DNA of 61,047 nt, filler included, from Dugesia japonica (Eukaryota): NCBI GenBank assembly GCA_001938525.1. It is 5 parts of 5 records of this genome, joined end to end, with 100 filler letters (N's around TTAATTAATTAA, not from the genome) between each part and the next. Parts side by side here need not be neighbours in the genome. Positions count along the whole stretch, not along the records: positions 18,223 to 31,876 come from MQRL01636593.1; positions 31,977 to 40,286 come from MQRL01605661.1; 3 more parts are not named here. One strand, given 5' to 3'. Shown here in pieces: positions 629-39,012 of this stretch. The notes under the pieces are model-generated. The model ran no database searches and was not told the origin of the DNA. It worked only from the letters and a program-made list of their open reading frames with translations. Position 1 is the first letter of the stretch. Every line of letters begins with the position of its first letter. The translations under genes and the position numbers were made by a program.

Positions 629-1429
629 TTTCAAAATAAATAATGAAAAATTATTGCAAATTTTGCTTATATATNNNNNNNNNNNNNNNNNNNNNNNNNN
701 NNNNNNNNNNNNNNNNNNNNNNNNNNNNNNNNNNNNNNNNNNNNNNNNNNNNNNNTTTACCGATATATCAAACCAATTATTCATTTCGATTAAAATGTTA
801 ATAATATTTTGTAAGTACTATATCAAATTCAATGGAAGATACGCATGCAAGGTTCTTATAAAAAAATATGTAAATTTAATAAATAATTTATTAGTTTCCT
901 TAAAGTTATATTATTGCATTTCAATGATTTGATGAAATTAATTTATGAACTTAATGTATATGTATTGAATTTATATATATGTATTAATGAAATCTGTATG
1001 CATTTATATGTTTTTATGAAATCTGTGTATGTTTGCATAAAATAAAAGTATATTAATAGTAGATAGATAATGTATAAATGAAATTGATGCGTGTTTCAAA
1101 TCGATGCAATTAAACAAACTAATTATTAATTAAATGCTAAATTTTAAATTATTAGTGACATATATTGAAACTATTAATAAATTTGTTTAAACTCATTGTT
1201 TGCACATAGTTATAACTTTTCAAATTCATTTTTAAGAAAAAATAAAATTTAACAAAAGAATCAAATAATAATCAAAACTTGTTGATAAAAGGAAATATAT
1301 ATTAGCGTGAAACTTTTTNAAAAAAAATTCATTATGTGTAGAACACTTTAAAAATAATAGGGATTTGACGGAATTATTTTAAGGTTTATGAGTATATAGG
1401 GTTTATGATGTTATTATCTGCATAATAAC

Positions 1430-14212: not shown

Positions 14213-14274
<62 letters not shown>

Positions 14275-15163
14275 NNNNNNNNNNNNNNNNNNNNNNNNNN
14301 NNNNNNNNNNNNNNNNNNNNNNNNNNNNNNNNNNNNNNNNNNNNNNNNNNNNTATTGATATTTTCTAAATTAGTATTTAAAATGGTATTATTATTTCTAA
14401 TACTTTCTAAACCATCCAGATTATTTATTTTATATTTTAATAAAGTACTCAAATATTAAGAAATATTCGAATGAAATTCCAAAACTATTTGGTAACAGTA
14501 ATTAAATATGGATCATTGTGTAATCAGCAAAATGAAAATGAAATAATCTTCTAGAAATATCATTTTAATTAATGGGATTGCATAAATTCAAATTAAGAAT
14601 TCTTTTCTGATTACTCTAAATTTTCAAATGTCAAATTTTCCTCTTGTTTTGAAAACGATATTATTTTCAAATAAATTTGTTTCAAATAAAATGACACAAT
14701 ACATAGTTATTTGTGAAATTTATTTCGTTATTTCAATATTTTATTTAATTCCATCATAAATACAATAAATCTATGTATTCACATAAACCAGTTATAAAAT
14801 AAACCATTTAGATTTTAAGAAATTACAAAAGAATTGAATACATAAAACTTTACAAAACTATAAATTGTTGATCGTTTAGAACAAATTTTAAACATTTTCC
14901 CATTTAATACTTACTACATAAACATTGAAGACCTGCTCCAAAAGTTGAAGTTAAAGAACCAATTAATAATACCCATCGATGAGGCCAACAAACCTCAGCA
15001 ACAACCATTCCGCCACCCATACTGACACCGTACTTGTCTAGAAGAACTTCTCGTGTTGTTGTTCCAGCAAAAATAACTACAAATGATAAGTAAACAACAG
15101 ATGTTGTTAATTGCGCTGCAATTGTGTATCTTGGAATGTCCTTTTGAGGGTCTTTCAAATCAC
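12294..15163 (-). CDS. kcc: K-Cl cotransporter (SLC12A4-7/KCC family), four internal exons
   Basis: Exons 14915-15163, 13907-14180, 12511-12732 and 12294-12468 with GT-AG introns splice in frame: [66 protein letters not shown]. Confidence 0.95.
12894..13023. mobile_element. Small MITE-like element with 26-bp inverted ends
   Basis: AATCGATTAGGTAACAGTCTCAATAA ... TTATTGAGACTGTTACATAATCGATT (1 mismatch), inside a KCC intron. Confidence 0.7.
14205..14274. repeat. (AAT)n microsatellite; others at 22683-22727, 47295-47322, 48343-48414 and 48688-48835
   Basis: Directly visible; most abut N gaps. Confidence 0.95.
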
Positions 15164-15814
15164 CTATGAATATTAAAGAATATTGAAAACAGAAAGAAAA
15201 TATTTAATAAATAAATATGAAGTTCTATAATATTTTATTAGTGAAGATAAGATTAATTAATAATCAATAATTATGATTAGTGCACGGAATTTAGTGATAT
15301 TTCATTTTCTAGAGAAATCACACAAATGTCTGTTTAGAAAATGGTCGTGTTTTAGCTTAGTTCCAAGGGAAATGGAACATAACTAAATTTTTTTGATAAA
15401 AAGTTTATTTAAAATTTTAAAAGCAAAAGATCAAAATTGTTGTTCTATTTTTGTAGATGGTTCAATATTTCGGCTATTAATAGATAAATATTAATAGATA
15501 AATATTATAAAATTTTAATACCATTTAAGAAAAATTTAACAACAATATCGAACCGTTAATTTATATGAAAACAACAATATTTAACTGATTATTTTTTAAT
15601 TTAACATTTTNNNNNNNNNNNNNNNNNNNNNNNNNNNNNNNNNNNNNNNNNNNNNNNNNNNNNNNNNNNNNNNNNNTGGAAAATTCATTAGCATACTTAT
15701 CGTTTAGTATACCAACAATTATTAGAATACAATGAAAGAATTTACTGTGGATTTAATTATCTATTTCTATTGGAAATATAAAAAGTTTATTCAGCGACAA
15801 AATTAACCAAAGAT

Positions 15815-17655
15815 CCAATCGTCTCCAATGAGCTGTTATTAGCGCAATATATTCGTTCCTCGCTTTTCTCTAACATTGTTTCTCAGAGTTTATTAAATCC
15901 TTTCATGCTCATCACATTTATTCTTGCTCCTGTATCCAAAAAACAATCAAACTGTTCACTCTTGATCATCACGGAAATACTGGGTCTCCCTTGCATTTTA
16001 TCATACGAAATTTCTGCATTCTGTTTTTCTTCAATTATTCCTATCACTTCTGCTTTGTTAACTTCCGCATCATTGAAACTTTCTCTTTTTAAGAATCTGT
16101 AGACATTTTATCTCACTTTACTAATCTCATCCCATTTCTCGGCCTCTTGAGGATATTCAAACGGTATCTCGTTCAATGGATTGCTCCGACCAACTTTTCT
16201 ACTGACGGAGCCCTGCCTTTTGGGTATTCTCTTCTTGGATCATCATTTTCTATTATGCTCTCAGAAAATCTGTCTTCATTCTCGTCATCAAATTCTTCTC
16301 GAATGGCATGAATTGGTTTTGTCCGATTCCAATCTTTCGTTTGTTGCCTGTTTCTAAAATTGTATCTTCTCTCTTCTAGTCAAGGTTTATTAATGTTCGA
16401 ATAACATTCTTCTGCTCTGTGACCCGGTCTTTTACATCTATTGCATACAATTTCTGTGCACATCCTTCTGACATGACCAATTTTACCACACCCAAAACAT
16501 TTTGGTGGTTTCTTGTCTGGACAATTTCTACTTAAATGTCCTTTTTTGTGACAAGTCCAACATTCCACTTGAGAATTTTTTGGACACTCTCTTTGTGTAT
16601 GCCCATAACTCTGGCATGTTCAACACTGTGGTTATGTTCTTTTTGTAACTCTCTCAATATTTTGTCTCCTTTCTCCAAAACGTTCTCCGCGTGTTACACC
16701 AGCGTAACTGTTTACTACGTTAATGGATTCTCTTCTTTTTATTTTTTCCACCAAAGATAACGTTTCTTATGTCTTCTACTTTCTCCAATTTTCGCATAAT
16801 AATCTGTTACGTTTGATTTTTTACTATTTGCACAGATTATTAGCATTTTTGATAAGAGTTTTTCTTACGTCAGTTCTCCAGTTGCTAAAGATTTATCGAC
16901 CAAATCTTCCACTCTTTTAAAAAACACATAAAATTCTTAATCACCACGTTTATGGCTTACAAGATTCTGTAAATCTTTTATTATGTATCTCTTGCTCTTA
17001 ATAGCTAATCGCAATCTCTCTCGATATCCATCAGCTTTCTTCAACTTCTTTACATATGCTTCCATTGAATCTTCATGAAGCATACATGTTACCCAACGTT
17101 TCTGATCTTTCTAGGCAATGATGTTCTTTGCCTCAGAGTATATTTCACACCGTTTGATAAACTTCCTTAGATCTGCAAAACATTTTTTTCGGCAACAATC
17201 TTTCTGTGATTGCATCGGTGTTTACCGCTGCCACAATGTTAGTTGGGTTTTGAAAACTCATCGAATCATTAACATCAGAATTCAAATTTATTACAACGAT
17301 TTATTAATATAAAAAAACTATATATGATTTAAAAAAATACATTACAATAGAAATTTAATTTTATATTTTATTATATTTAAATTATATTTGATTTTAAAAA
17401 AATATATTAAATAAAAATCTTTTGTTCATTTCATTTTATATTTTAAAAAATCCTTAAATTTAAGTAATTTGTTTTATAGTTTATTTTCTTGATATATTTT
17501 TAATTATACTTTTGATTTTACTAAATTCCGTTTTTAAAGATAAAAAATTTTAAATCTGTTCTTTTAAAAAACTATCTTATANNNNNNNNNNNNNNNNNNN
17601 NNNNNNNNNNNNNNNNNNNNNNNNNNNNNNNNNNNNNNNNNNNNNNNNNNNNNNN
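15815..17655 (-). mobile_element. Truncated Ty3/gypsy copy: 5' LTR, PBS, gag with three CCHC knuckles, protease
   Basis: LTR end ..CTAACA at 17237 followed by a tRNA-Leu-like PBS TTGTGGCAGCGGT; CWTCHKKGHLSRNC, CFGCGKIGHVRRMC, CNRCKRPGHRAEEC; protease FLDTGARINV near 15920-15950. Confidence 0.88.
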
Positions 17656-18122
17656 AAATATAAAAAGTTTATTCAGCGATAAAATTAACCAAAGATTTAC
17701 TTTAAAAAACAATTTCATTAATAATATTTTTAATCAAATTTCAATAATCTAATAATAATGAGAATTAAATAAAAAATTCATGATTAATTAACTAATTAGA
17801 GTTAGAAGTAAAAGGATGGATTTACATAAAATACCGATTAATTTTATTATAAATAAAAAATTTTAAAAAGCCACTAAATAAAAAACGTAGAGTATTGAAC
17901 ACATTATTTTTGACATGGAATTAGTATAACACATGTCAGCAAAAATATCAATTACTTTTTCAAAAAAATTATAATTGAAATAAAATTTCTGGAATGCCTA
18001 TAAATTAATTGGAACACATTTAACATTATGATTTTATTTAGTGATGATATTAATCGTGGTTATGTTTCTTGATTGCCCAAGAAGTCAATAAGAGTTATTA
18101 CTATTATTATAATAATAATAAT

Positions 18123-18222: not shown

Positions 18223-18429
18223 ATTTTATGTTTTGATTAGTCTTTTCATTTTTCTTTTATATATTATTAATAATATTGTCTGAGTAGCATCTAATCTTTA
18301 TATTGCTCGGAGCGATTAATATTGATGTTAATATTGGTCGTAGGGAAATTCACTTCAAAATTTGAAAATTTAAACAAAATAAGTTTTCCCATCGATTTTC
18401 TTTAAAAAATTNGTAAAAATCNTTAAATC

Positions 18430-19299
18430 ACTTNATTTAAATAAAAATCTGAAAATTCAGTAATTTTAAACAATGATAAAGATCAATTAATTTAAACAAA
18501 AAATAAATAAATAAAGATTAAAACAAAAAATATTATGTCAGCGCGGGAAGTTTAAATATCAAGTCTGCCCGGGGAATTTAAAGATGATGTTTATCAGATG
18601 ACCTTGAACTACTTCGACCAATCAGATCGCAAGATACTATATCACTTTGAACGTAAACTACTTCGACCAATCAGATCGCAGGATACTGTATCACTTTGAC
18701 CTTTAAATACTTTGACCAATTAGATAGCAAAATACTTCATTACTTTGACCTTGAACTACATCCATCAATCAGATCGTAGGATACTATATCACTTTTACTT
18801 TAAAATGCTTAGANNNNNNNNNNNNNNNNNNNNNNNNNNNNNNNNNNNNNNNNNNNNNNNNNNACTTAATTTAAATAAAAATCTCAAAAATCATTAAATT
18901 AAAACAAATCACAAAAAATCAATTACTTTAAACAAAATTAAATAAATAAATAAACATTAAAACAAAAAATATTGTCTGCGCGGGAAATTTAAATATTAAA
19001 TCTGCGCGGGAAATTTAAATATTAAGTCTGCCCGGATGATAGTTGTCATGGAAATAACCCTGACCTACATTTAGTCGACCTTGAAATATTACCCCAATCA
19101 GAACTGAGTTAGCTAAATCATTCTGAAAATTAAACCTTGAATTATTGCAGCCAATGAGAATGAAGTATACTAAAACACTGACCTTGAAAATTTAACCTTG
19201 AATTATTTCAGCCAATGAGAATGAAGTATACTAAAACACTAACCTTGAAAAAATTGACCTTGACGGGGGGGTGTTCCAGTGCGCCACTATCTATCGACT
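18430..19299. mobile_element. Terminal region of a Polinton/Maverick-like element with two tandem regulatory modules
   Basis: Ends in GCGCCACTATCTATCGACT at 19299; duplicated ~430-bp module holding GCGCGGGAAATTTAAA repeats and 49-61-bp TGACCTTGA/CCAAT repeats. Confidence 0.6.
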
Positions 19300-19435
19300 C
19301 ATTTTTCATAATACTCACTTGATTCTAATTCTACTTAATCTCTATTGGTCAATGGTGTCAGTTTAACAAAAGAATTTAAATAAAATAAAATCATATTAAA
19401 TAAAAGAAATCTGGCTATAGAAAGTTATATTATGG

Positions 19436-19666
19436 TTAATTCCATCCNNNNNNNNNNNNNNNNNNNNNNNNNNNNNNNNNNNNNNNNNNNNNNNNAACTG
19501 CAATCTTGATCTGGAGCAAGCACACATGGATCATCTCATTAGTTACTTCTTCAACCATTTTTTGGTAGATTCTTCCGAATGGGAAATCGTTGTAGAAATG
19601 AGGTAACCAGAGGTTACCTTTAAGTAATGAGTTCCTGGTTGGATTTGTTTCACGTTTGGTTTCCAA
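19436..19666 (-). pseudogene. Short orphan ORF downstream of the CCAAT/TATA promoter (TTG start, contains an N gap)
   Basis: ORF track plus its position relative to the promoter; no homology recognised. Confidence 0.35.
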
Positions 19667-19741
19667 AATTTTTTTGATTGACTTTCAGTTAAATTTTCGC
19701 TTTGGAATTTTTATGAGTTATTTTCGTCTGAAATTGAAATG

Positions 19742-19882
19742 GTATTTATACTGTTTCTCTTTACATCCTCGTTTCTTTCATTGGTTACTTAACGTCGTAT
19801 CATTTTTCTAATGTTTCTATTGGCTTTGTCGTCACATGAGTTATTTTATTGGTGGTTATTTTTAGGATTCCAAAATTATTGG
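19742..19882 (-). promoter_or_regulatory. TATA box with four upstream CCAAT boxes
   Basis: TATAAATAC at 19750-19742; CCAAT on the minus strand at 19780, 19819, 19848 and 19878; a short ORF (19436-19666) follows. Confidence 0.6.
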
Positions 19883-20683
19883 TCAATCTTCAAACCCTTG
19901 TATCTTTTTTCTGAGTCTCGTTATGATTTTTTAACTTGGATTTTCGAAATCTCCGATTTTTTTCTTGACCATAATCTTCTTAATTGCTAATTTTTGCACC
20001 TAGGGAAGTCGTCATTTTTGCCATATTTCACAAAATATTTCATTTTCTTTTAAAAATAAATCATTTTAATTCGTATGATTTATTTTATTTAAATAAATTA
20101 TTTATTTTCTTCTTAAATATTAATTATATGTTCATTCTTTGCTTTTCTGATCTGAAATTAATTTAAGTTCATCGTTTTTTCTTTCATTAATTAATTTAAT
20201 TAATTCCTTTTATTTATTTTCTCTTTCTCCAATTATTAGCTCAATATTGTTTTCTTAGTTTTGCCTAATGAACTAATTGTCATTCCTTATTTTCTTTATC
20301 TGACTGATAGCTTAACTTCTATTACTTTTTTCTTCCTTTTGGCATTCTTATTTTTGAGTTATTTCTTGCTGTAACTTTAGATTTTGCTGGTTATTACGTT
20401 AGTTTTAACTACCAACCTTGGTTTTTCTTTTAATTATTTCTTTCCTTCAATGAATTGTGACTTTCCTTTATCTGGAATCTTTGTTTCCCCATTTGGTGAC
20501 TATCTTTTCATTTTCGACTTTACCTACCGCCATTATTATTTTCCATACCAGTTGTTTCATCCCAAAAATTGGAAAAAAAGAATTTAAGATCAAGGAAAAT
20601 TTTCATTTGTTCATTATGTTTTGGGTTAAAATAAAACCTGTTTTTGAACAGTTTTTATAAATTAAATGAAAATAAAACTCTTA

Positions 20684-20952
20684 AGTAGATAGATAGTGGC
20701 CCACTAAATTATCTCCTACAGTTGACGTAAGAAAATTATTACTTAAGCGATTTAGAAATTTTCAAGTATTTTCAAGAATTTTCAAGTATTTTAGGCAGCG
20801 AACAAAATTTATGTTCGATTACAAATGTTTTGCTCGTATTTTATAAAGTTTGACGAATTATTTTCAAATTTTAGGCTTTCCAAATTTCGGTCCAAATAAA
20901 GGTTTCAACATAAAAATGTAGGTTTTATTGACCTTGACGGGGTCAAGGTTAT
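20684..20952. mobile_element. Terminal fragment of the AGTAGATAGATAGTGGC family
   Basis: AGTAGATAGATAGTGGCCCAC at 20684; 10-bp tandem repeat; hairpin ACCTTGAC-GGG-GTCAAGGT at 20931-20949. Confidence 0.55.
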
Positions 20953-21425
20953 AGGACATCGAATATAGATACATTCAATAAAGGTAAGAAAGGATAATTG
21001 CAAGAGAACTAGTGAGAGGAAGCTAATGCAAATAATGACAAGAAAAAGTGAGATAGTATTATCTAATTTACTTGAAGTCAAATAATTTTGTCTGAAATTT
21101 ATATGAACTTTTTTCAAATCGTTAAAATCAAGTAATTTACCCACCAATCTTTCAATTAATGTTTTAATCTATTCATACCTTATTTAATATAGTCTATATT
21201 AATATGAATCTATACTTTACAACCAATAATTATTCATGGTTAATTTTATTCACAAATTTTTACCTTAATATAGAAAATCCCTCGAGAAAATAGATAGACA
21301 TTTTTACTAAAAAAACAATTTAAAATTCATTTAATTTTCTTAGATAAATTAAATAAAATAATTAAATAAATTAAAATTAAATTTCAAAAAGAAAAAACAA
21401 ATAATTTAAATGATACTAAAATTAC

Positions 21426-21779
21426 CGGATGTGTTAATTTTAGATCTTCGAAATTTCCAAGTTTGCCCATTAATTTTCGATATAAAACCGGAGGCAATTT
21501 TAAATCCAATATAACATTATTATATATAGCTAATCCCAAAATAATTCCTATTAATTTATATTCTCTGTGCAATTCTTCCATGGGAAAAGGGTTGAACCAA
21601 AACATATTTGTTTCGTCATTATAAACAAACATTCCATAATCCGGATTGAATATTTTTTCCACAATTAATTGAAAAAATTCTTTACTAACGCCACCTTCAT
21701 CAATAGTTTCTTCATTTTTAAATTCAATATAAAGTCTCCTTTTCAATTTATTAGTTCCAGTTGAAATTGTAAATTCTAG
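21426..21779 (-). CDS. UBE3A: UBE3A/E6AP HECT E3 ligase, HECT N-lobe exon
   Basis: LKRRLYIEFKNEETIDEGGVSKEFFQLIVEKIFNPDYGMF..FWFNP..LGLAIYNN..YRKLMG; splices in frame from DDALNG at 29139. Confidence 0.95.
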
Positions 21780-22682
21780 CTAACAAAAAAGAAATATCAA
21801 AAAATATACTATGCATTAATTGAAAGAAAATTTATTCTTATTAATCACAGCAATAAAGTGCTTATCTGATACATTATTTAAACAATAACTAAATATTAAT
21901 AATTTCTATTATTTACATAGGAAGAATACAGTGAAAGAACATGTGTTTATTTACAAATTTCTTATTCATTCATTTGTAAAATTGCAGTCCTAAATTTGTT
22001 GTCAAAATAATATTTACCATCTTAACAATAGTAACACAAGATACATTAAAAATACGTTATTAAAAATGTTCTACATTTTATCATACCATATTTTTTATAC
22101 AGTTAATGTAACTTTTACTTTAATTAATTGCTCTCTTGGAAGTTATTTGCTAGATATTTTTAATATCATTCGATAGAGGATAAATAGTTAAATAAAAATA
22201 CAATGTTTTAATTAGTGACCAATGAAAATTCATTTTAATCTGATTAATGTAAATTGTGTTTCTATATAAACTTTAATAACCAGAATGAATTGAGTAATAG
22301 TTCCTGAAGAAGGCATAGCCGAAATATTGAAACATCTACGAAAATAGAAGAACATTATTTTGATCTTTGCATTTAAAAATAAATTTTTAAAAAAAATTGT
22401 TTTTCAAAATATTTATTGACTATTTTTTTATGTCGAAATCTATTTTTATCATATTTTTACTATTTTATTGTTTTAATTAATTCATTTAGTACGCATTTTA
22501 TGTAAAATTGTTTTTTCTTTCATAGGCGTAGATTTTGTTCACATCTTGAGTTTTCACAACTTAAGTGTGAACTTTCACACCTTAATGTAAACTATAAAGA
22601 TGTTCACACAATAATGAGAAATTTCATACTTCAAACGTAACTTTTTACACATTAATTGTCAATTATTACTTTTTATTATTAC

Positions 22683-22727
<45 letters not shown>

Positions 22728-22851
22728 NNNNNNNNNNNNNNNNNNNNNNNNNNNNNNNNNNNNNNNNNNNNNNNNNNTATTATTATATTATTATATTATC
22801 ATTATTACTGTATTACTATTAATAATAATAGCCAAAAAGCAAAAGAAAACA

Positions 22852-25800
22852 TGTAAAATAAAATATTTCATAAAATTAAATCGATATTTTTAATTTATTT
22901 TATGAAATAATTATGTAAAGTAGAATATTTCATAAAATTTAAAAAAACGATATTTGTAAAATATTTTATTGAAAAATTTCTCAGATTATTTGTTTAAATA
23001 CTATGAATTATTATAGACATTATTTTTATTTTAATCAAAAACACTTATTAAAATTTATGGAGAGTTGCGAGGTTTTGAATTTAACTAATATGGCGACCAA
23101 CGCATCATTGGATTTGCTAAAAGAAGCCATGAACCCTGGAATTTTCAAATTGGGCGATGATGTNNNNNNNNNNNNNNNNNNNNNNNNNNNNNNNNNNNNN
23201 NNNNNNNAAACAAAGAAAGGCCAAAGGAGTTGGTTTGTAGTTGCTTTCAAAGATAAAGAACTGTGTGAAATCTGTAAAAATGAAGACGAATCATTGGGAT
23301 TTGAAGAAAGATTAAGAAAAAGCTTTCTTTAGACCATTAACAATGATTAAAAATATGGAGGAAGCTCTAAATTATCGAAGGAATGGAGAGCATATAAATA
23401 TCTATTAGAAGAAGATTGAAGGATTGGTAGAAAAGTTAATGGCTCACAAATGAAACAAAGAGGACTTAACAAAAGAGCTAATAATGAATAGTTGCAACGA
23501 CAGAAAGATTAAACATAAAATCAAATCAGGAAAAATAGAAAAAGTAGTAGATGTATTAAAGCAATAAATGAGTGGGAAGACATAAAAGACGAAGTAAAAA
23601 CTGAAGAACTAAATGTAGTTGGTAACTACAAAGATGCAGTTCGCCGTGGTCCAGAACAAAAAAATTTCAACAAGAGTCGAAATGTAGGAATGCAACAGAA
23701 CAAAAACGAAAGACGAGAAATAACGTGTTGGACCTGTAACAAAATAGGTCATGTAAGCAGAAATTGTCAAGAAAGAAAAAATAAGTCCTATGCTTGTGAA
23801 TCTGAACAACATTTAAGACGAGAATGTACCAAATTTAGTTGTTCAAGATGCAACAAGAAAGGTCACCATACAGAAGACTGTTACACAAATATTAACAGAC
23901 AGTTTAGTTATCAGAATAAAAGTGAACAGACTAGAAAAGTATTCGGAAATTACCTGAATTCAAATGAAATCAAAAATTTGTCAACCAATATTAAAAATTC
24001 AAGGAAATTTATCTATTATCATAGATGAATCTACCACTTTAAGTAAAAAGACTGGACTTATTATTTATTTAAAATGCAAAACAGATAAAATAAAAGATCT
24101 ACATTTTATGTTTCGTGATTTAATTGAATTGCAGCTAACACAAAATATGTGCAACCACCATCGGTCAAGAAATTGAACGTATCGGATGTATATTTAACGT
24201 CCGATAGGTGGCCAGCTCCCTTTTAAAACTGTATAAACAGTTTGGCTGAAATGGTCATCTTTATGTCATCATTTCGAAAATGCGAGTAAAGACAACAACC
24301 GCACTAAAACTGAACAATCCATGTTCAATGNNNNNNNNNNNNNNNNNNNNNNNNNNNATCGAAACAATTTCTTCAAGATTTGGCCTTAATGTATGATGCT
24401 CTATTCGAGCTATCTAATCTATCAGAAGCATTGCAAAAAGAGAAACTTTAATCTTATATGCAGAAAAATTTATTTCGCCGCACATGAATTATTTAGAATA
24501 TTTAAAAAATCCTCAGAAAGGAAAGAAGTTGTTGGAAGTAGATTGTGCTGTTGAAACAATGNNNNNNNNNNNNNNNNNGTTGACAGATAATAAAAAGTTA
24601 AAATTCATTCACAGAAATCAATTATTAACTAGTATTATTAATAATATGAGGAATAGGCTAAACACTACATCTGAAAATTGTTCTGGTTCAGGCGGAATTT
24701 CGAATTCCAACAGTTCCGACATTGTTAAAGAATTGCGAATTCTTGAACCAACCGCATGGCCATTCGAAATTAATATGGATTTAAGAGAAAAGGAAAGAGA
24801 AACTCTATTCCAACGCTTTAATTTACCGTTGAAAAAAATTTTAAATGTCTTCAGAAATTACTTAACTTGTGGTGGTCGTAACATTTCAGAAGATTTGGAG
24901 ACTTTATAAAAAAATTTCAAAATTATAGCTTGCCATTCTTCAGAATGAGAGTGTGGATTCAGCAGCATAAATGTATTGTTTAAAAAACTTCATGAACCAC
25001 CTTTGGAATTGTGGACTCCAATTTTATACGTAAAAACCTGGTTGCGTTCCCATTGATCCGCTACTGACGACCAAACTAAAAGAGCAGGGGCATATAAGGA
25101 AATTGTGTGTGATTCTATTCGGGAGTTATTGTAAATTTAATAGTATAATACATATTAATACCTTTAAGAATCTTATTCTTATCTTTTTTTGAATTTATCT
25201 TTGTTGTGTTTGTTAATATTTTGTATTTTTCTGAATATGAATAGAAAATTATTATTTGTTTTTATTGAGATTAGCAAATATTTTATTATAAAGAACACTA
25301 TTTTTAATTCTAATTGTTTCGATTTTTTATTTAAGCATTTTTAAGCCTGGCGTACAAATATCGAAATGTCGATATTTATTAGAAAATTAGAAACTCGGTT
25401 TTATTGGTGGTCAAACTTTGCATGTTTTAGGATAAAGAATATATCATTTTTTAAAACACCAAAAATTTGTTTTTTTCTCAATAGATTAGATAATTATAAA
25501 AAAAGAAAGACTTCGGCAGTGCATTTTTTAGATAATCAGATTCGACCAGTGGTGGATTTGGGCCGGAACGGCGTTCCGGTACTTCTTATTTTACCAAAAC
25601 ACCACTGGTCATATGCAATGTCAACTCATAAAAAAGGATATTGTATAACAAGAAAGAGATTATTGGACATTTACTATTTTAGTAACCATTTTAAACATTA
25701 TTTGTATGGAAAAAGATTTTGGGTGAGAACAGATAACAAGGCGATAGCATTTATGAAAAAGACAAACAAGCCAATTACTCCTCAATTTCAGACTTGGATG

Positions 25801-27300
25801 AGTTGTCTTAGTAGCCCAGATATGGTATTGGAATTTAGACAAGGTGCGAAACAAACGAATTCAGATATGCTGTCGAGAATGAATTGTGATACGTGTGTAT
25901 AATACTTAATAGATCATAAGAATCCAAAGGAAGGAAAAATAAAGACAAGAACAATTAATGGTATATCAGGCTCAGATACATATTCTATAACATATTCTGT
26001 AACTTAGAAGAAATAGAACAGATAAAGAATGATATGAAAAATGGAACATGTAAAAAGTTTCGATTAATAGAAAAAATAATAAAAACAAAAGATGGCAAAA
26101 TATGGATCCCGTCAAAAAGGAAAATTCAAATGGTAAAAGAAATGTATAATTTATTGATGCACGCAGGAATGGAAAAAGTGAAATATTATTTAAAAAATGA
26201 ATATGATATGGAAGATTTGAGAGAAACTATGTCAAAAGTAATTAAAGAATGTACAGCGTGAAAAATGAACAAAGTAACAACAGTTAGAACAAAGGAGAAA
26301 CTATAAAATTAAAGGCTAATGCACCATTTGAGAATATTTATATTGATATCTGATAAGAAACCTTAGGAAGAAAAAGATATATATGTGCCATAATAGATAA
26401 ATTTAGCAGATACATATGCTTAGCAGCCCTAGTTAAACAAGATGAGTAATCAATAAAGAAAACTATTACGGATAAATGGATACTGAGATTTCGTGCCCCA
26501 AAAGAGATACATGTAGATTGTGGGACGACCTTTGAATCGAAAGCCTTCAAACAGATGACAGATTCAATGAATATAACAATTTGTTTTTCAAATCCTAATA
26601 CAAACGGAATAGTAGAGCGGCAATTCAGAACGATCAGAGATAACATCAATACAACATTAAAAGATAAAAAGAATAAAAATTAGGCAGTTAATACCAGAAA
26701 TTGAATATACACTAAATGCAACAAGCCAGAAGACTTTGGGGATAAGTCTAGCAGAAGTGATATTCGGTAAGAAAATACATAGAGAAAGATGGTTCAATAA
26801 TGGAGAAAAGAATGAAGAATCCAGAGAGTTGACACTAACAAAGAGACATTTTCAAGTTGGAGACGATGTGCTAATTAAGGTAGAAAACAGATCAAAAGAC
26901 AAGGAAAGATATACAGGTCGATAAGAGGTGATAAAACAGATTCATGAAAGACGATACCTGCTGAAGAGTTCAGAAGTCAAGATGATTGAAAGAAATGTGG
27001 AAAAGATTAAAATATATTTGAAAGAAGTGGAATGTAAGATTCATTCATAGATTTAAATATCTGAGAAATCTTTTTTAATTTTTATAAATATAATATTAAA
27101 ATTTATTTTTAAAACATATGTAAAATCAAATATTTCATAAAATTGAATCGATATTTTTAATTTATTTTATTGAAAAATTTCTCAGATTATTTGTTTGAAT
27201 ACTATGAATTATTGTTGACATTATTTTTATTTTAACCAAAACCTCTTGTAATAATAAATACAATTTATGGAGAGTTGTGAGGTTTTGAATTTAATTAATA
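22852..27300 (+). mobile_element. Decayed Ty3/gypsy element in a UBE3A intron, lacking PR-RT and interrupted by a hAT relic
   Basis: LTRs at ~22852-23090 and 27033-27300; PBS TGGCGACC at 23091; purine tract before 27033; gag CCHC knuckles at 23725-23880; RNase H (YCITRKRLL, VRTDNKA) and IN (HAGMEK, HVDCG, NGIVERQFRTIRD). Confidence 0.88.
23940..25607 (+). mobile_element. Degraded hAT transposon (KIAA1586/ZNF862-like transposase)
   Basis: SIIIDEST catalytic-D motif; hATC-like SSE*ECGFS near 24940-24965; 3' end CACCACTG at 25600-25607. Confidence 0.75.
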
Positions 27301-27522
27301 GGCTCAAGGTTAAATTAGTCTTCGAGGCAATTAATAATTATTCGGAACGAATTCAAGATGCGTGTCGAGAGACTATTTTCAGCTTTATAATTAATATTGA
27401 ATGACTTAAAGCAATCGATGAAAGAAGATTTACTCTCAGAAGTTTTATTTCATATAATAAATAACGAAAATTGATATCGTATTTTTCTTTTTCTTTCAAC
27501 TTTTGAAGATTTGATTTTTTAT

Positions 27523-27610
27523 AAATGGTACTTGGAGCATGGAGCGGTGATAAAGCCGGTTTGCAGTGACAAAGCGGAGCACCATAAAAAATTGGACTGG
27601 ATAAAATTTA
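27523..27610 (+). pseudogene. Possible relic of a Polinton-type protein-primed DNA polymerase B
   Basis: KWYLEHGAVIKPV..KKLDWIKF resembles the recalled pPolB segment L[KR]WY[LV][DE]HG[AL]VI; short and recognised from memory. Confidence 0.45.
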
Positions 27611-29138
27611 CATTAATCATACCAAAATTTTATACCATCACATAGAAATCTAAGCCAACATGTAAAATACAGGAATAATTACTGAAAATAAACACTTCAA
27701 CATGGAAAATAATATCTATATTTTAAACAGCTTTTGTCAAATATTGATTTTCTTGACTTTGAAAATATTTTAGTAATCTATGTCATCTCATTACGCATCC
27801 ATTGAAACTAAGTTTATCTCAATAGGATTATATATTTAGAGGAACTGGAACAAATTTTTCGCAAATGCGCGATAACTCATTATCTGATCCAGTGCGCCAC
27901 TGCCCGTTATATTGAGAACAACGCACTTTGCCATGCAAGTCTTTTAGACAATATATAGACAGAATTTTGGTCCCACCTCGTTAGAAACGATTTCGATTCG
28001 AAAATGTGAAAAATAATAATGTGCTGTACCGTGCTGTTCAGTGCAAAAAGTGTTTTTTGTGAATATCGATTAGCTTATTTGGCCCATTTACATAAAAATA
28101 GCACCAAAATATGCAGTTACGAAATTCCGCGTACATAGATACCAAAATTTATCGGCTCAGAACAAAAGCATTGTGTTTTAAAAATNNNNNNNNNNNNNNN
28201 NNNNNNNNNNNNNNNNNNNNNAAAAAAATTTTTAACCATTAAAACAAAAAATTATTTCCCATTACGAAAACATAAATTTTGCCTCAACTGTTACTTTTTC
28301 TGTGGCGGGTTGAGGTCATGCGCTCTTATAAATTAGCAATTTTCTTATAAATTACATTTGGAAAGTTCCGTTAAATAAATTTTATTAAATAATTAAACAG
28401 TTCAAAATTATTATAGACTTGCGATTATTTTGTAAAATTATTTGTAGCAAATCTCATGACGATCTTGTTTATAGTTAATGAAAAAAAATTCTTGGAATTG
28501 AAATATTTAATAGAAGGAAATATTTCAAAAATTTATATTTAAAGTTTTTCAAGTGATTTTAACAGTTTAAGACATTTATTGTTTAAAGTAAATTTAATTG
28601 CAAAAAATAATAAGCAATAAAATTTAGTTAAAATAATTTTAATTAGAGAAATAATTGCATTTTGTTATTTTATTAAGTTATCTTTGAATTTTGTGAATAA
28701 ATTATATCTGAAAGTATTAACGTTTGTATTGAAAATAAATTGTCTTCTGACGATTTTCCTAACACTTAATATTAAAAGATGAAAATAATTACAAGAAACA
28801 AAGTTAAATATAAAGTTAATATTTTGCAAATTGCCAATTTTGTGAAGGATTTTCATAAATGAATACTTATCGTTTTATGTTTAAAAAGAAAATATTTTTG
28901 CATCCGTTAAATTTTATTTTATTTTTACTCGAAATGAAATATTTTTAATTTGTACGTACTAAAAGGACAAATAAAAGACCAAACTGCAATTATACAAAAA
29001 ATTTTACATATTTAAATTCAGGCCTTTAAAAACAAATTACCAGCAAAATATATATAATTAATAATAAAATATATTAAAGTTTCAGAGACACAATTCTTAT
29101 AACTTCACACGAAAAAAGGTAAAATCAATCAATATTAC

Positions 29139-30290
29139 CCCATTTAAAGCGTCATCAACTAAATGTTCTCGGTCTATTGTTAATTTGAAAGGTTCCATTA
29201 TGCTCGATAAAAACGGATTATTGAATTCATTTCTCATTCGAATTCTATTATCATAAAATAAAAGAATAGCTTTCGTATGTGTTGTGAGCAAAAAAGCGTA
29301 TTTCACGAAACTGAAACCCTTTCCAGATTTATAACACACATAATCATTTTCTATCTAAAATAAATTACAATTGAGGGACTATAGATAAAATATCAATAAG
29401 AACATTAATGCAATCATTTAAAGTTTCATTAATAAAATCGTGATAAGGAATTAACGGATCTCTACAATCCATAGAATGAATAGATAATAACTTAGACATT
29501 TCATCTTTCGTGTTTTCAACATTTTCATCTTTGGTATCACTACGATTTAACTATAAAATTGTTAATAATAAAAGATTTTAAAATCAATTTCACCATATTA
29601 AAGATTTCCATATTGTAGATTCTTTCATTTTCTAATTGTAAAACCGAGTCGATATTTCCAGCTAAAATACTAGCATAATAAACACATTGTAAAACTAAAA
29701 CTGTATTAATAATTTCAGGATCTTCGTTTAAAACATATGCAGAATCATATTCAGTAGTTAACAGTCGTAAAGTAATACGCTGTTGCAAAATTTGATGAAG
29801 GCGTATCAAACGATTTTTTTCTTTCAAAATTTTAGCAAAAATTTCAGTTAAAATAGATCTAGTCTCTATTGTTAGCAAAGAAACTATTTCACAAACCTGA
29901 GGTAAAATATCCTCAAATTTAATAGGATCGGTTAAATAAGGAATTTCAAATAGTATAATTAAAATGTTCATTATTTCATAAGGTCTTGATGGCTCAAATA
30001 TTCTATTACATCTTTTAAGATGTTGGATTAATTGATTTACTCCTTTTTTAATTCCATTGAAAAAATCAACATTGTTCAGATTGAATAAAACGATAAATGA
30101 TTCACGGATACTGTTTACATCCACTGTGTATTTATCAGTATATATCATAGAATAATTTTCCAAAACTAAATTTAAAATTAGTTAAAATTGAAATTATGTT
30201 TCATTTAAAAGCAAAATTACAATAAAATTTAAAAATATTTATATATTCCCAATCAATGATATTTAGAAAGTAGTAAAATGCCAATTTTTG
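29139..30290 (-). CDS. UBE3A: UBE3A/E6AP N-terminal and pre-HECT exons
   Basis: Exons 29594-30165, 29404-29550 and 29139-29354 (43- and 49-nt introns), plus probable exon 30221-30290; DCRDPLIPYHDFINETLND, FYDNRIRM, DREHLVDDAL. Confidence 0.92.
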
Positions 30291-31221
30291 CTGAAATACG
30301 CGAAGTAAAATTATTGAAAAAATTATAATAAAGTCTAATAATAATGTATTGTATGCAAATAATAACACTACTGTAAATTAATATTAAATCTTTGAACAGT
30401 AAAATAAAACCACACCATTTTTTTAAATATTTTAGCCGTGTTTCGATCGTATTTCCGGTCATTTTAAGAAATTTAAATTTCAAATGCGCTCAAATTTAGT
30501 ACTATTCGACTCATAATTAAAAACTGTCTATATATGGTCTAAAGGACTACTATTCTAATGACTACATTGCACGTCCGTTGCATTTCATGACTACTATTGA
30601 AAAACGCTTCATTGACGTAGTTTATAACCTCTCAAATCCCGACGGCAAAGTGATAAATAATCTCATTAGACGAAAAATTTTCTAAGTGTATCAGAATTTT
30701 ATTGATAGAAATTTATACGTGGACAATTTAAAAGATAAGTTTGCTTTAATTCTTCGCAGGCAATTTAAATTTTAAAGTTTTCACGGTTTATGTATTTCTT
30801 TTAACAACGTGAAATTTTTTCGCGGTTAATTTGAATTATTTAATTTTTATTTTATTGCTTTTACATTATTTATTTTTTTCGCATAATTTTGAAATTAATT
30901 ATTTTAATTTTAAATTAATTTTAAGTAACTTTAATTTAAATTTTAAGTGCGAAAATTTTTAAGCTAATGAATTTTATGTTAGAAAACTTTTAAGGTATGA
31001 TATTTTAACTTCGAAAAATATTTTTAGCATGGAAATTTTAAATTTTAAATTTTAAGATTGAAAAATTTTTGTTTGTAAATTTTGTAATTGGTAAATTAAG
31101 TTGGAAAATTTTATTTAAAGTTTTTAACTTTAAAATTTTAGATTGAAAATTTATTTTCGAATTTGGTTTTTAAATTTTTAAATTTTAGTTGAGTTTATGA
31201 AAATAAATTTTAAGCGATGAA

Positions 31222-31330
31222 AGTAGGCAGATAGTGGCGCATGACACCACTACCTCCTCCCGCCAAGGTCACGATAAAGTGGTTACGTATACTTGATTTG
31301 GATTGGTCGAAATTTTCCAAGGTCACATTT
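31222..31330. mobile_element. Terminal fragment of the AGTAGATAGATAGTGGC family
   Basis: AGTAGGCAGATAGTGGCGC followed by CAAGGTCA, ATTGG and CAAGGTCA, the mirror image of 19200-19299. Confidence 0.6.
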
Positions 31331-31876
31331 CATAAAATTTATTAACTTAAAACATTATATATTTTTTGATTAACTTAAAATTTATATATATTTTGAGTTG
31401 TTACGAAATAATTGAGTTTAAATTATTGTTTTCAATTATTTTGTTATTAAATGTGCAATAGTACTTTAAGACAAATGCAGTTCATATGTAACTAATGATA
31501 TTGTAAATATATTACATTACATTATTTTAAAATTAACTAAATATATTATGTTACGGCATTTTAAAATTTATGATACACAAAAAGATAAGGGGATAGAAGG
31601 TAAAAAATTATTTTGGCACATAATATAAAAGTTATTTACTTTCAAAATCTTTCACAATTTTCATTTATATGTAAGTTTGTTATTTTTTTATATCTATTTA
31701 TATACAGTACGCACAAAAAAATCCGATTCTAAATTAAATTTCAATATTTTTATTTTTCAATTTGATCCATTTTAAATAAAATTATTTCTCAAAAACATAA
31801 ATTGTTCCATTTTCTAAATATTTTAATTTTTAAATATCTCACATAATAAAAGAAAAAATGAAGGCTTTCATTAAAA

Positions 31877-31976
31877 NNNNNNNNNNNNNNNNNNNNNNNN
31901 NNNNNNNNNNNNNNNNNNNNTTAATTAATTAANNNNNNNNNNNNNNNNNNNNNNNNNNNNNNNNNNNNNNNNNNNN
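31877..31976. other. Artificial contig linker
   Basis: 44 N + TTAATTAATTAA + 44 N. Confidence 0.95.
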
Positions 31977-33531
31977 TGATATTTTAAATGCAAAAGGTAT
32001 ACAGCTCAGATGCAACACACATACACTGAAAATTACATGCCTATGAATTTCAGTCTGTCCCATCCCATGCTAAATATAGAGGCTCCAAGTTAGATATATT
32101 GGCTCCCTATTCAAAATTTCAAGACTGATCATACCATGCAAAATACCAAGACTCTGATATCTTGTATTAATATCTTGTAATAATATCATAAAAAATATCA
32201 AGACTGCCAATAACATGCATATATTTCTTGTAATAATATCTTAAAAAATATCAAGATTGCCCATGCCATGCATAAATATCTTAAAAAATATCAACATTGC
32301 CCGTTTTATGCAAAATATAGAGACTCTGCATGCAAAATATCAAGACTACCCCATCTCTTACACAAAAAAGTCATTTAATTTAATTTAATTTAATTTAATT
32401 TAATTGCAATAAAAGATTTCCCCCCATTGCAATAAAAAATTTCCTTTTTTTTAAATTTCCCGCCAAAATAATTTTTTTTGAATTTTCCGCCAGAATATTT
32501 TTTTTGAATTTCTCGCCAAAATAATTTTTTTTGAATTTCCCGCCAAAATAATTTTTCAAAAATATCAAGACTCCCCTCTTCCCCAGTCGAAAATATTACA
32601 AAAGAACACTTCCCCGATCAAAATACCGAAAAAATAACCAAAAATACATCAAAAACTCAAAAATGATATNNNNNNNNNNNNNNNNNNNNNNNNNNNNNNN
32701 NNNNNNNNNNNNNNNNNNNNNNNNNNNNNNNNNNNNNNNNNNNNNNNNNNNNNNNNNNNNNNNNNNNNNNNNNNNNNNNNNNNNNNNTCTTATAAAATCC
32801 GATAATTAATTCTCTTTCCACACATACCAACCTCCACCTCACGAAAATATTTTTTAACACATCTTTACTACTTACAAAATAAACCAATCAAAAAGTAGCC
32901 TTTAAAATAAAAAATCAAAGCACATTCGACAACCAACATCTTCACCATCACATTACCTCTCCAACAAGCCATCAAGCAACAAATTCCATCAACAACATAA
33001 AAAACTACAACCAAAAGAAATACCACCCACGATAACTCATATATTGTGCCCGTGTGATGAAAACCATCCATCCAAACTCATAAGTTCTTTAGACAATATA
33101 TAGACCAAATTTTTGTCCGACAAGAAAAATCTTCAAAATCCAAAAAAAATTATCTCCAAGATCTCCAGCTACTCTTCCTCGTTTTTTCCAGTCTTTTACA
33201 CACACACAAACACAACTTGACCTTCTTTTTAAAAAGCACCTTAACAACCCAAACACAAAGAAAATTTAAAATTTCAAAATACACACACACCTTCAGGATC
33301 AAAAAAATCTAATTAGATAAAAAAAAAATTTGATCCGAGCAAAATATTTTTGATCCCAAAAATCTTAGAAAAAAAATCGATCACAAAAATCATGGTTAAA
33401 AAACGCAGCTTAAGCGTAATGTGTTTCCGAGCCCCCCCACGGGGAGGGGGGCTCGATAACTACTTAAAAATAATTGTGCCCGAATTTTAGCTCATTGCCA
33501 AATTGTGCCCGTGTGCCACTATCTATCTACT
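31977..33531. mobile_element. Terminal region of the same family, abutting a gypsy pol fragment
   Basis: Ends in GTGCCACTATCTATCTACT at 33531; ATGCAAAATATCAAGACT-type repeats at 32020-32360; four TTT(G/A)AA-N4-(C/T)CGCC units at 32450-32544; ATTGTGCCCG three times; GC hairpin at 33428-33456. Confidence 0.6.
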
Positions 33532-33900
33532 CACCTTTTGTATTAGCTTTAAGAAGATTCGTTTCACTCAATATCTCTAATACTTGTAGCACTGGCCAGA
33601 ATAAATATTTATCTTCATCTTTCTAATTTACAATTGCAGGTGATCAAAAAGTTAGTTTCATATGTTAAGACTAAATTTTACTTTTGTGCTTCGATTACGG
33701 TAGCTTCATTGCATTCTATAAGGTGAGCCCATTTCCATGCCATTCTATCTTATGTAATTACAATTAAAGATAGTTTTCGTTAAATATGGTATATAAATCA
33801 CTTGTAATCACCTGCATCTTTTTTAAAGTTTCATCAGATTTCATATAAGAACAACCTAGAATATTTTTTTATCGTTGCTTCATAAACTTTAAGAATTTTC
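33532..33900 (-). mobile_element. Gypsy RT/RNase H remnant
   Basis: Decayed FLGCSYMK, WHGNGL, SPAIVN and downstream RNase H-like segments on the minus strand. Confidence 0.5.
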
Positions 33901-36057
33901 AAGTTTTTTAATATTTTATTACACTGTATTACAGCATAATTTTGTTTCATATAATTAAGAAATAACTAAAAGCCAATATGAACATGATTAAAATGAAAAT
34001 AGTAAAATAATTTAACTACATTTATTATGAAATTAATTCTGATTTCCACCTCAATACAATTAATAATATTTTTAATGCGTACTTTTTTTTAACTTTAGAA
34101 TCAATCAAGCTTAAAGGAAAATGCAGCAAAAATTGTTATTTTTATGATCACTCTAGTGAATTATTTGGATTATGTAAGAGTATTTTTAATTTTTATTTTT
34201 AATTTTTAGGAAACTTATAAAATTTATAAAAATATAACTTTAAATATATTATGATTTTAAAAGATGAAAAATAATTTGAAAGTATTGATACTGTTGGAAT
34301 TTTAACTTGATTTATCATCAGTTTTAAAATGAATTTTTATTTGAAATGCTAATTTTACTTGGATTTTCGTGAAATACCTTAGATACATATTGAATTTTTA
34401 TATCAAAACTGTTTAAAAAGCTGTTCAGTCTTAAGATACTACAACAATTACCCAATTCATACTCATTACATGGTTGGGCAATGCGACCTAAATACGATGA
34501 TGTAATTGAAATAAATTAAAATTTTTGTGATTTTTTCAATTATTTCTCCATAAACCATAGTAACCTGGGTAATTCTGAAATGTTAATGAATATGGAGTTG
34601 ATCTCTGTTTTGGTGCCGGAAAGTAATGATACCTCATTGTGAAATCGAGTAAAATCTTGTTCTCAAATGAACTTACCACTGTGAAAGCAAGTGAGAAAGG
34701 CGATATGTAACGACAGCTATATAACGACTTCTATTAATGAAAAAGGAAATATGATTTTGGATACAATGGAAATGGTTACTCCGGACCCAAATTTGGCTAA
34801 TTTTGATTTATTTAAAATTTTTAAATCTTTCATCTTTTTTTATTTAGATTTTGATGATATCCATCATTGTTGGAAGAATATTTTTCAGTCAGTAGAGGAT
34901 AATAGGATTTGTAAATTTCATCTACGATTTTGGCATTATATTTGTCAATGTAGACCTCACTGCAGATGGATAACTTTGGCTGATAATGTTAATACTAATG
35001 TTCTTCGTATGCAGGAAGCTTGAAAAGTCAGGAAAATGCAGCAAAAATTGTGACTTTGTAAAATCATTTTATTAATGTCTTTTGATAGTAATTTTTTTAA
35101 AACTTTTATAGCCTTTTTAATTTATTCAAAATTTATTACTTTTGTCTCAAATAATATCCACCATTGTGTTTCTGATTTTTTAAAACATTATTTTGGCCAA
35201 ATTTTGATAATAATATTTATATTGATAAGTCTGAGTTTATCGGTAATAGTGATAACAATAATAAATTGCCTTTGACGAATAATGTTTATAATAAAAGTAA
35301 TGACTTTCTGTATTATTATTTGTAACAGTGATAATATCTCTGGATTGCATGCTATTTTGTATGATTGAAAATCAAATTTACCTTCAGGATTTTTTTTGTG
35401 GCTCTTCAATGTTTCAACAAATCTCTTTTTTTTAAAAGGTTTTCGTCAAAATCCTTTTTAAAAGTGTCTAAATCTAAAGGTTCTATTCCTACTAAATTCC
35501 TCCAAGGGTTTTAGATGTATCAATGGTAATCAACTCGATAATTCTTTAGGATTGGGTGAAAGAATCTTCCAAAATATGATTATTAACTAGCCTAAAAATA
35601 CTAAACCCGTGTCGATCAAAGAAAAATGATTTAATAACTTTATAGTTAAAACTATAAATAATGTCCATAAGATTCCTGATTTTATATCGGATATTTTCCA
35701 TAATTTCCAAAAGATTCTTATCCCAAAAACAATCCAAAACTAATCACCCGTTTTCTAAAAATTTTAAAAATTCCATAGTAATTTAAATTCAAAAATTAAT
35801 TCAAATTTTGAAATTAAAGATAATTTTAAAAGGCTTTCTATCAAACATTGTAATAATATGTGCAGGGATATTAATTTACTTTTTCCTCTGAAGTTAAGAA
35901 TGGCATTTATGGAAACAGTAATGGGGCTTTACAAATATTAATCTTATATAATGATATCATTAGTATAAATTGTAATTCTTATTACAATTTATACAAAAGT
36001 CTTTCATCATTTAATACGAAATTTAACGAGGGTAATTTACTTTTTACTTTTACCCTT

Positions 36058-39002: not shown

Positions 39003-39012
39003 ATGACGTCAT
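39003..39012. promoter_or_regulatory. CRE/ATF palindrome upstream of the ZDHHC gene
   Basis: ATGACGTCAT 160 bp upstream of the ATG in a CpG-poor context. Confidence 0.35.

What the first reader, a model, noticed from the sequence alone, without database searches (positions are those of the whole stretch)
18430..33531. Dispersed AGTAGATAGATAGTGGC-terminated family: candidate new Polinton/Maverick-like endogenous virus
Seen: the same terminus at 19299 (reverse), 20684, 31222 and 33531 (reverse), plus a partial copy at 1058, across three segments. Shared motifs link further pieces: GTCTATATATKGTCTAAA at ~27942, 30526 and 33088; TCCAGTGCGCCACT at 19275 and 27888; TTTGACG(G)AATTATTTT at 1365 and 20850. 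At 33531 the sequence switches abruptly to gypsy pol, as expected at an insertion boundary. Established: Polintons have 5'-AG..CT-3' ends with short terminal repeats used in protein-primed replication, long repeat-rich TIRs, and small orphan genes. Inference: these are TIRs and remnants of an unannotated Polinton-like lineage or its non-autonomous derivatives.
Basis: partly seen in the sequence, partly recalled or inferred. Interest (0 to 1): 0.8.

Follow-up and report, generated by a model that had tools for sequence, protein, structure and literature searches.

The report
Orphan transposon ends, probably Polinton remnants
Four short, gene-free ends of large mobile elements, most likely the already well-known virus-like Polinton transposons, lie in host introns and at contig edges of an AT-rich animal draft genome; they are ordinary repeat debris and no new virus is shown.

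Summary
The repeated terminus is real: 4 copies at the stated coordinates (none in 100 shuffles). It behaves as an element end: conservation starts sharply at AG and lasts 20 nt, the outer flanks are unrelated, and two copies stay homologous inwards only. It is not one element or one family. The supposed orphan genes are exons of a host UBE3A-like ubiquitin ligase, with a gypsy element in its intron. No Polinton, transposase or helicase gene was found. Three of 4 ends run into a contig edge within 1.6 kb, as expected when a short-read assembly breaks inside large high-copy elements. AGTAG ends, no fixed target site and repeat-rich arms fit Polinton/Maverick inverted repeats best (about 0.6); Mutator-like foldback elements are the main rival. 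Polintons are already catalogued and abundant in planarians, the likely but unproven host. The 1058 copy, the TTTGACG link and 'gypsy pol at 33531' are unsupported. Low interest.

The parts
18430..19299 (-). End A: 20-nt terminus at 19299, then 61-bp, 26-bp and 49-bp tandem arrays; inner limit uncertain, contig starts at 18223
   Evidence: 18430-18585 repeats 18864-19022 at 84%; homologous to end C
20684..20950 (+). End B: 20-nt terminus, short remnant fading before the host exon at 21420; 8-bp-stem hairpin near 20930-20948 that contains the motif shared with A and C
   Evidence: inner limit estimated by eye
31222..31360 (+). End C: 20-nt terminus plus about 120 nt homologous to end A and to A's tandem units; may continue to the contig end at 31876
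   Evidence: (0 of 1000 shuffles reach the A-C score)
31977..33531 (-). End D: 20-nt terminus at 33531, GC-rich hairpin at about 33428-33457, 27-bp and 53-bp tandem arrays, running to the contig start
   Evidence: (z -2.8 for the first 120 nt)
33082..33121 (.). Second shared block (TATATAGAC module) about 410-450 nt inside end D
27888..27976 (.). Fragment E in a host intron: 14 nt identical to A's subterminal dyad without the first 11 terminal bases, next to a 40-nt block 85% identical to D's inner module
   Evidence: 5 of 300 random pairs score as well as D vs E
30519..30549 (.). Fragment F: third copy of the inner module, weaker
   Evidence: 24 of 300 (D vs F) and 10 of 300 (E vs F) random pairs score as well
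1058..1069 (+). 12-nt partial match to the terminus; doubtful member
21420..21779 (-). Host exon, HECT domain of a UBE3A-like ubiquitin ligase (context, not part of the elements)
   Evidence: Pfam HECT E 2.7e-18; tblastn
29136..29974 (-). Upstream coding blocks of the same host gene (29974-29597, 29505-29407, 29354-29136), collinear with the 21779 exon
   Evidence: tblastn with 4 homologues, e.g. P0003 residues 397-546, 565-597, 599-680, then 680-799
22892..27300 (+). Decayed gypsy LTR retrotransposon in the host intron (context)
   Evidence: direct repeats 22892-23090 and 27100-27300 at 83%; zinc knuckle, RNase H, H2C2 and rve hits
31877..31976 (.). Artificial contig spacer between ends C and D; they are not shown to be neighbours

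Best explanation
These are left-over terminal inverted repeat (TIR) ends of large DNA elements from at least three related families, most likely Polinton/Maverick. Likely history: each element was integrated into host DNA (here introns of a UBE3A-like gene and an intergenic site) without a fixed target sequence; B and the E/F scraps then decayed, and the bodies behind A, C and D are probably missing because the short-read assembly broke inside the high-copy repeat. Likely working of the end in the live element: the first 20 nt are the part read by element-encoded proteins (integrase and protein-primed polymerase), which is why only they are kept between families; AG-T-AG gives the short terminal repeat used for slide-back priming; the dyad at nt 12-22 is a candidate protein-binding site; the family-specific arrays further in carry host-factor-like sites (CCAAT, E2F-like, TGACCT) acting as accessory origin or promoter. 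SHOWN: the ends, their sharp outer boundary, A-C homology, intronic position, absence of coding capacity. INFERRED: the Polinton class, the size of the missing bodies, every mechanistic role (by analogy with adenovirus origins, recalled).
For: Mean pairwise identity 0.88 over nt 1-20 against 0.30-0.40 on either side. Outer 130-nt flanks unrelated in 6 of 6 pairs; A and C homologous inwards, 0 of 1000 shuffles. All 4 start AGT; 3 of 4 match (AGT)2 at 5 of 6 positions and keep a period-3 AG repeat; (AGT)2 is the commonest vertebrate Maverick end, TIRs 46-1447 bp (PMC8097293); 1-3-bp terminal repeats and 100-1000-bp TIRs are described for Polintons (PMC4196379). Fixed-target superfamilies disfavoured: TA or TWA outside 1 of 4 ends, TTAA, AT or TT outside 0 of 4. 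3 of 4 ends reach a contig edge within 655-1555 nt, simulated chance 0.008 with a threshold chosen after the fact. Prior: Mavericks are expanded in Dugesia, Polintons are piRNA targets in S. mediterranea, 96% of vertebrate loci are degraded.
Against: No Polinton gene: none among 115 frames of 65 aa or more or 105 of 137 shorter frames near the ends; longest ATG frame inside any remnant is 67 aa. No paired TIRs and no duplication of 2-12 nt in 6 of 6 left-right combinations. 0 of 4 ends match (AGT)2 or (AG)3 exactly, and A breaks the AG repeat. The dyad also occurs without the terminus at 27888. No published Polinton end with this sequence was found, and Repbase/Dfam were not available. The host being a planarian is an inference only.
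Confidence: 0.6

Rival explanations
1. Ends of Mutator-like foldback elements (Phantom, Rehavkus or FB type) or another long-TIR cut-and-paste superfamily: a DDE transposase binds the conserved outer 20 nt and the internal tandem arrays are extra transposase sites.
For: Long arms with tandem arrays, no fixed target bases and conservation limited to the outer end fit these as well. DNA/DDE elements are also expanded in Dugesia. That the Drosophila FB element starts with AG is recalled, not checked.
Against: No transposase hit. AGTAG resembles the published Maverick end motif; most Mutator ends start with G (recalled). The Phantom and AcademH papers were not held, so their termini were not compared.
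Confidence: 0.2
2. An unclassified element type with a short 20-bp TIR and different left and right arms (A/C type at one end, B or D type at the other), autonomous or not.
For: Only 20 nt are common to all four ends, and A~C differ from D; A, B and C share one further 9-nt motif, 3 hits against 0.03 expected.
Against: A and C, the same type, are themselves well diverged, so several families are needed anyway; no C-D or B-D target duplication; C and D are on different contigs.
Confidence: 0.1
3. The motif is not a terminus but an internal site of a repeat, for example an LTR end plus primer-binding site (TGG at nt 14-16), or a small-RNA or SINE head.
For: The dyad part occurs without the terminus at 27888; the window is rich in gypsy elements.
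Against: Outer flanks are unrelated, whereas related LTRs would be alike there; the bases after TGGC differ between copies, unlike a tRNA-complementary site; no Rfam or tRNA hit in the window.
Confidence: 0.06
4. Helitron or Helentron ends (rolling-circle element with sub-terminal repeats and a hairpin).
For: Hairpins in D (about 75-100 nt in) and B (about 245 nt in).
Against: No hairpin beyond shuffles in the first 100 nt of A, B or C; ends are not TC or CTRR and a Helitron hairpin lies 10-12 nt from the 3' end (PMC4196379; CTRR form recalled); no AT or TT target; no Rep-helicase hit.
Confidence: 0.04

Closest known systems
Polinton/Maverick elements of planarians (Polinton-1_SM, Polinton-2_SM, Polinton1_SM, Polinton2_SM of Schmidtea mediterranea, 11.6-15.9 kb; DNA/Maverick of Dugesia)
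   Same: Abundant, multi-family, in AT-rich flatworm genomes; the window is 26% GC, gypsy-rich, and its ALDH9 exon has no close named relative (46-55% identity to the best 120 hits).
Vertebrate Mavericks with 5'-(AGT)2 // (ACT)2-3' ends (PMC8097293)
   Same: AGT start, conservation falling off sharply into the host and more slowly inwards, arm lengths in the same range.
   Different: Sixth base differs in all four ends (AGTAGA, AGTAGG, AGTCGA); 20 nt rather than 6 nt are shared; 6-bp duplication and eight core genes not seen.
Solo Polinton TIRs in Caenorhabditis elegans (bioRxiv 10.1101/2024.01.15.575659)
   Same: TIR-only remnants inside a host gene locus, overlooked by libraries built from another species.
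   Different: There the TIR was tied to pPolB and integrase genes and has a shown host role; neither is shown here.
Mutator-like foldback elements (Phantom, Rehavkus, FB; recalled)
   Same: Long arms with internal tandem repeats and weak target preference.
   Different: Expected 8-11-bp duplications and MULE transposase could not be tested or were not found; no source text was held.

Membership tests
Polinton/Maverick | Protein-primed DNA polymerase B and retroviral-like integrase in the element | tested here: inconclusive
   No pPolB hit; the 4 rve hits lie outside the remnants, in gypsy-like context. The element bodies are probably beyond the contig ends, so absence is not decisive.
Polinton/Maverick | Packaging ATPase, adenain protease, major and minor capsid genes | tested here: inconclusive
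   No hit among 115 long and 105 short frames; same caveat; Pfam may miss divergent capsids.
Polinton/Maverick | 5'-AG end with a short terminal repeat | tested here: met
   AG start in 4 of 4; period-3 AG repeat in 3 of 4; exact (AGT)2 or (AG)3 in 0 of 4. Met in the loose sense only.
Polinton/Maverick | Long paired TIRs (about 50-1500 bp) | tested here: inconclusive
   Repeat-rich arms of about 140 to 1555 nt are present but no second arm of any one element is in the window.
Polinton/Maverick | 6-bp target-site duplication | tested here: inconclusive
   None in 6 of 6 left-right combinations, but no combination is a true pair.
Polinton/Maverick | Nucleotide match to catalogued families (Repbase, Dfam) | not testable with these tools
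   No eukaryotic repeat or genome collection was available; paper supplements searched held no matching sequence.
Mutator-like foldback | MULE DDE transposase | tested here: inconclusive
   No hit; bodies missing.
Mutator-like foldback | 8-11-bp target-site duplication | tested here: inconclusive
   No paired ends.
Tc1/mariner, Harbinger, Zator, piggyBac, Kolobok, Sola3, ISL2EU | Fixed target (TA, TWA, TTAA or AT; targets recalled) | tested here: not met
   TA/TWA outside 1 of 4 ends; TTAA and AT outside 0 of 4.
Helitron/Helentron | TC...CTRR or TT ends, hairpin close to the 3' end, AT or TT target | tested here: not met
   feature list from PMC4196379 and recall.
tRNA-derived SINE or ncRNA | tRNA-like head or Rfam family | tested here: not met
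   0 Rfam matches at gathering score; 0 tRNA genes.

The most novel reading that the evidence does not exclude
The 20-nt end (AGTAG reiteration plus a GTG-N3-CAC dyad) is the conserved core origin of a multi-family group of large elements that is either a so far undescribed superfamily with asymmetric arms, or a widespread non-autonomous Polinton satellite class that borrows polymerase and integrase in trans. It would then define a cis-acting replication and integration signal that has not been mapped for any animal Polinton in the papers I saw.
Probability: 0.1. Interest if true: 0.5.

Novelty: new member of a known kind. Interest (0 to 1): 0.15.

Why it matters
Little as it stands: gene-free transposon ends are common, and Polintons are already known and abundant in the likely host group. 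The one useful by-product is a 20-nt cross-family end signature that could map element boundaries, count families and find solo TIRs genome-wide, and that points to a candidate core origin for testing how these elements are copied and integrated.

Tried and rejected
Single 15-kb element at 18430-33531: rejected; the interval holds a host gene, a gypsy element and a contig spacer. Pairing B with 27901, C with D, or E with F: rejected; host exons or a contig joint lie between, and the terminus combinations show no duplication (E-F flanks compared by eye). Orphan ORF 29543-30181: no homologue found alone but it maps to the HECT ligase by tblastn. TTTGACG link and 1058 copy: chance-level or doubtful. 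Gypsy pol right of 33531: unsupported. Relatives in prokaryotic collections: 0 hits with a 21-nt degenerate pattern; 9 hits with the 17-mer, none extending beyond 19-22 nt and so taken as chance; no match of end D in phages or of end A in plasmids. ESM Atlas on two flanking frames: no usable hit, which shows nothing either way. Host identification: the DHHC gene gave one unnamed hit at 66% and ALDH9 only distant hits; names for the best HECT homologues could not be obtained, so the species stays open. Literature: nine completed searches besides the motif search gave context only; 'agtagatag'+'transposon' gave 9 papers, judged unrelated from the listing; 'maverick, polinton, tir, agtag' gave 5, two read in passages without a Polinton terminus; a search for planarian Polinton names gave 1 unrelated paper. 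Kapitonov and Jurka 2006, the Phantom paper and the AcademH paper were not held. The adintovirus supplement was cut at 4.0 million characters, so its sequence files were not seen; the vertebrate Maverick supplement was listed but not read; bioRxiv supplements (Dugesia repeat figures) were not seen and could bear on the novelty claim. The viral and metagenome contig collections were not searched, so free viral relatives remain unchecked.
Full report
SETTING. The window is 26% GC and is a concatenation of five draft contigs separated by N44-TTAATTAATTAA-N44 spacers: 1-9432, 9533-18122, 18223-31876, 31977-40286 and 40387-61047. Its host genes are animal-like: an ALDH9 exon whose best 120 hits, mostly animal where named, are only 46-55% identical, a DHHC palmitoyltransferase, an amino-acid permease family gene and a HECT ligase. 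Low GC, AAT microsatellites, many gypsy pieces and the lack of close named relatives suggest a planarian. That is my inference; no call names the host.

OBSERVATION. The 17-mer is present at the four stated places (A 19299 minus, B 20684 plus, C 31222 plus, D 33531 minus), with no match in 100 shuffles. Their meaning differs. The 40-nt block shared by D and 27937-27976 is probably real (85% identity; 5 of 300 random genomic pairs score as well) and the third copy at 30526 is weaker (24 and 10 of 300). The TTTGACG match is what AT-rich DNA gives by chance (185 of 400). The 1058 copy is 12 nt long and lacks the GTGGC block. The claimed gypsy pol after 33531 was not supported by Pfam, tblastn or shuffle-controlled alignment.

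IS IT A TERMINUS? Yes, most likely. Ungapped identity among the four copies is 0.88 over nt 1-20 and 0.30-0.40 in the 20-nt blocks on either side. The outer 130-nt flanks are unrelated in all 6 pairs (66 to 486 of 1000 shuffles as good). A and C stay homologous inwards to about nt 140 (0 of 1000 shuffles), and A's 49-bp and 61-bp tandem units both match C (0 of 1000 each); B-C is borderline (16 of 1000) and the other four pairs are at chance. GC rises from 0.15-0.30 outside to 0.29-0.49 inside. So there are at least three end types that share a 20-nt tip. One result cuts the other way: 14 nt of A's subterminal sequence occur at 27888 without the first 11 bases, so part of the motif can be internal or truncated.

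NOT ONE ELEMENT. Four HECT-ligase homologues map collinearly to 29974-29597, 29505-29407, 29354-29136 and 21779-21420 on the minus strand, so the ORFs in the interval are exons of a host UBE3A-like gene (the UBE3A label is my recall of the family; Pfam says HECT). The homologues' last 200 or so residues are not on this contig, which puts A and B in a downstream intron; E and a decayed gypsy element (LTRs 22892-23090 and 27100-27300) lie in the 7.4-kb intron; F and C lie upstream of the mapped exons. D is on another contig. No left-right combination has a duplication of 2-12 nt (0 of 6). Pfam found no pPolB, packaging ATPase, adenain, capsid, transposase or helicase in 115 stop-free frames of 65 aa or more, nor in 105 of 137 frames of 30-64 aa around the ends; 32 low-complexity frames were dropped before that scan. 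The longest ATG frame in any remnant is 67 aa.

WHAT CLASS? Three of the four ends point into a contig edge 655, 1077 and 1555 nt away (simulated chance 0.008, threshold chosen after the fact), which is what a short-read assembly does at large high-copy repeats. The arms carry tandem arrays of 26, 27, 49, 53 and 61 bp with CCAAT-, E2F- and TGACCT-like words; these words are enriched over shuffles, but I picked them from the same sequences and tandem copies inflate the counts. The bases outside the ends fit no fixed target, which sets aside the TA, TWA, TTAA and AT superfamilies (targets recalled). All ends begin AGT; three match the common vertebrate Maverick motif (AGT)2 at 5 of 6 bases and keep an AG-x-AG repeat, none matches exactly. 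Polintons are described with 6-bp duplications, 100-1000-bp TIRs and 1-3-bp terminal repeats. This makes Polinton/Maverick the best fit, about 0.6; long-TIR Mutator-like elements remain open, about 0.2. Helitron, SINE and LTR primer-site readings fail direct tests.

HOW IT WOULD WORK. Shown: gene-free ends with a conserved 20-nt tip and family-specific arrays. Inferred: in the parent element the integrase joined these ends to host DNA, and the protein-primed polymerase started at them, using the AG-x-AG repeat to slide back; the dyad centred on nt 16-18 (arms of 4, 5, 2 and 3 bp in A, B, C, D) is a candidate binding site, and the arrays are accessory origin or promoter sequences. The parallel with the adenovirus core and auxiliary origin is recalled, not tested. 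Today the pieces are most likely inert; intact copies behind A, C and D cannot be excluded because the contigs end.

COMPARISON AND NOVELTY. Polintons are already on record in planarians: four S. mediterranea families of 11.6-15.9 kb (PMC4028283, supplement rows; one main-text passage); 748 integrase-linked pPolB1 genes in 8 of 73 flatworm genomes (PMC10748475, passages and supplement rows); expansion of DNA/Maverick in Dugesia (bioRxiv 10.64898/2025.12.11.693146, passages); piRNA silencing of Polintons (PMC8532177, passages). Degraded loci are the rule in vertebrates (96%; PMC8097293, passages and section 7), and solo TIRs inside host loci are known in C. elegans (bioRxiv 10.1101/2024.01.15.575659, passages). 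Also read in passages: PMC6431247, PMC4196379, PMC3014272, PMC8502044 (truncated supplement), PMC10045372. I found no printed Polinton end with this 20-mer (searches; supplements), but these sources hold few terminal sequences and Repbase was not available, so this is no evidence of novelty.

VERDICT. Real repeat ends, several families, probably Polinton TIR remnants, membership unproven, no evidence of a new virus. Interest 0.15.

Noticed in passing
window 18223-30181 (minus strand): UBE3A-like HECT ligase host gene with a 7.4-kb intron holding a gypsy element; its last exons are not on this contig.
   Followed up: yes
window 27938-27960, 30526-30549, 33082-33105: All three copies of the inner module begin with AGT when read in one orientation, and the 30549 copy is preceded by a further AGT; it could be the end of a separate element family rather than an internal block. 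No duplication seen by eye around E-F or 33082-33531.
   Followed up: partly
window 33428-33457 and 20930-20948: A GC-rich 10-12-bp hairpin inside end D and an 8-bp hairpin inside end B, both stronger than shuffles; role unknown.
   Followed up: partly
window 19300-20683: 1.4 kb between ends A and B, which face away from each other; lysine-rich broken frames on the minus strand look like a decayed retroelement by eye, but Pfam and the Atlas gave nothing.
   Followed up: partly
window 35875-38214: Possible decayed non-LTR retrotransposon: a YADD reverse-transcriptase piece at 37945-38211 (Pfam E 0.036) with an upstream frame that looks Ulp1-protease-like by eye (no Pfam hit).
   Followed up: partly
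window 23958-24909: Sequence nested in the gypsy element that looks like a hAT-type transposase fragment by eye; no Pfam hit.
   Followed up: partly
window 10815-11227 and 45636-51432, 55751-55954: A different, unrelated dispersed repeat family with inverted copies (72-94% identity), probably a MITE or TIR family.
   Followed up: no
window 2248-2601: 92-98-bp tandem repeat with TGACTCAT, AAAATGGCCG and G-rich blocks; resembles a transposon arm but has no AGTAG terminus nearby.
   Followed up: no
window 56242-56942 and 57700-59455: A 22-bp AT-rich satellite with internal palindromic symmetry and a complex 13-bp-based satellite.
   Followed up: no
window 3391-8102: A second gypsy element with 98-bp direct repeats (91%) and a 387-aa RT/RNase H frame.
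   Followed up: no
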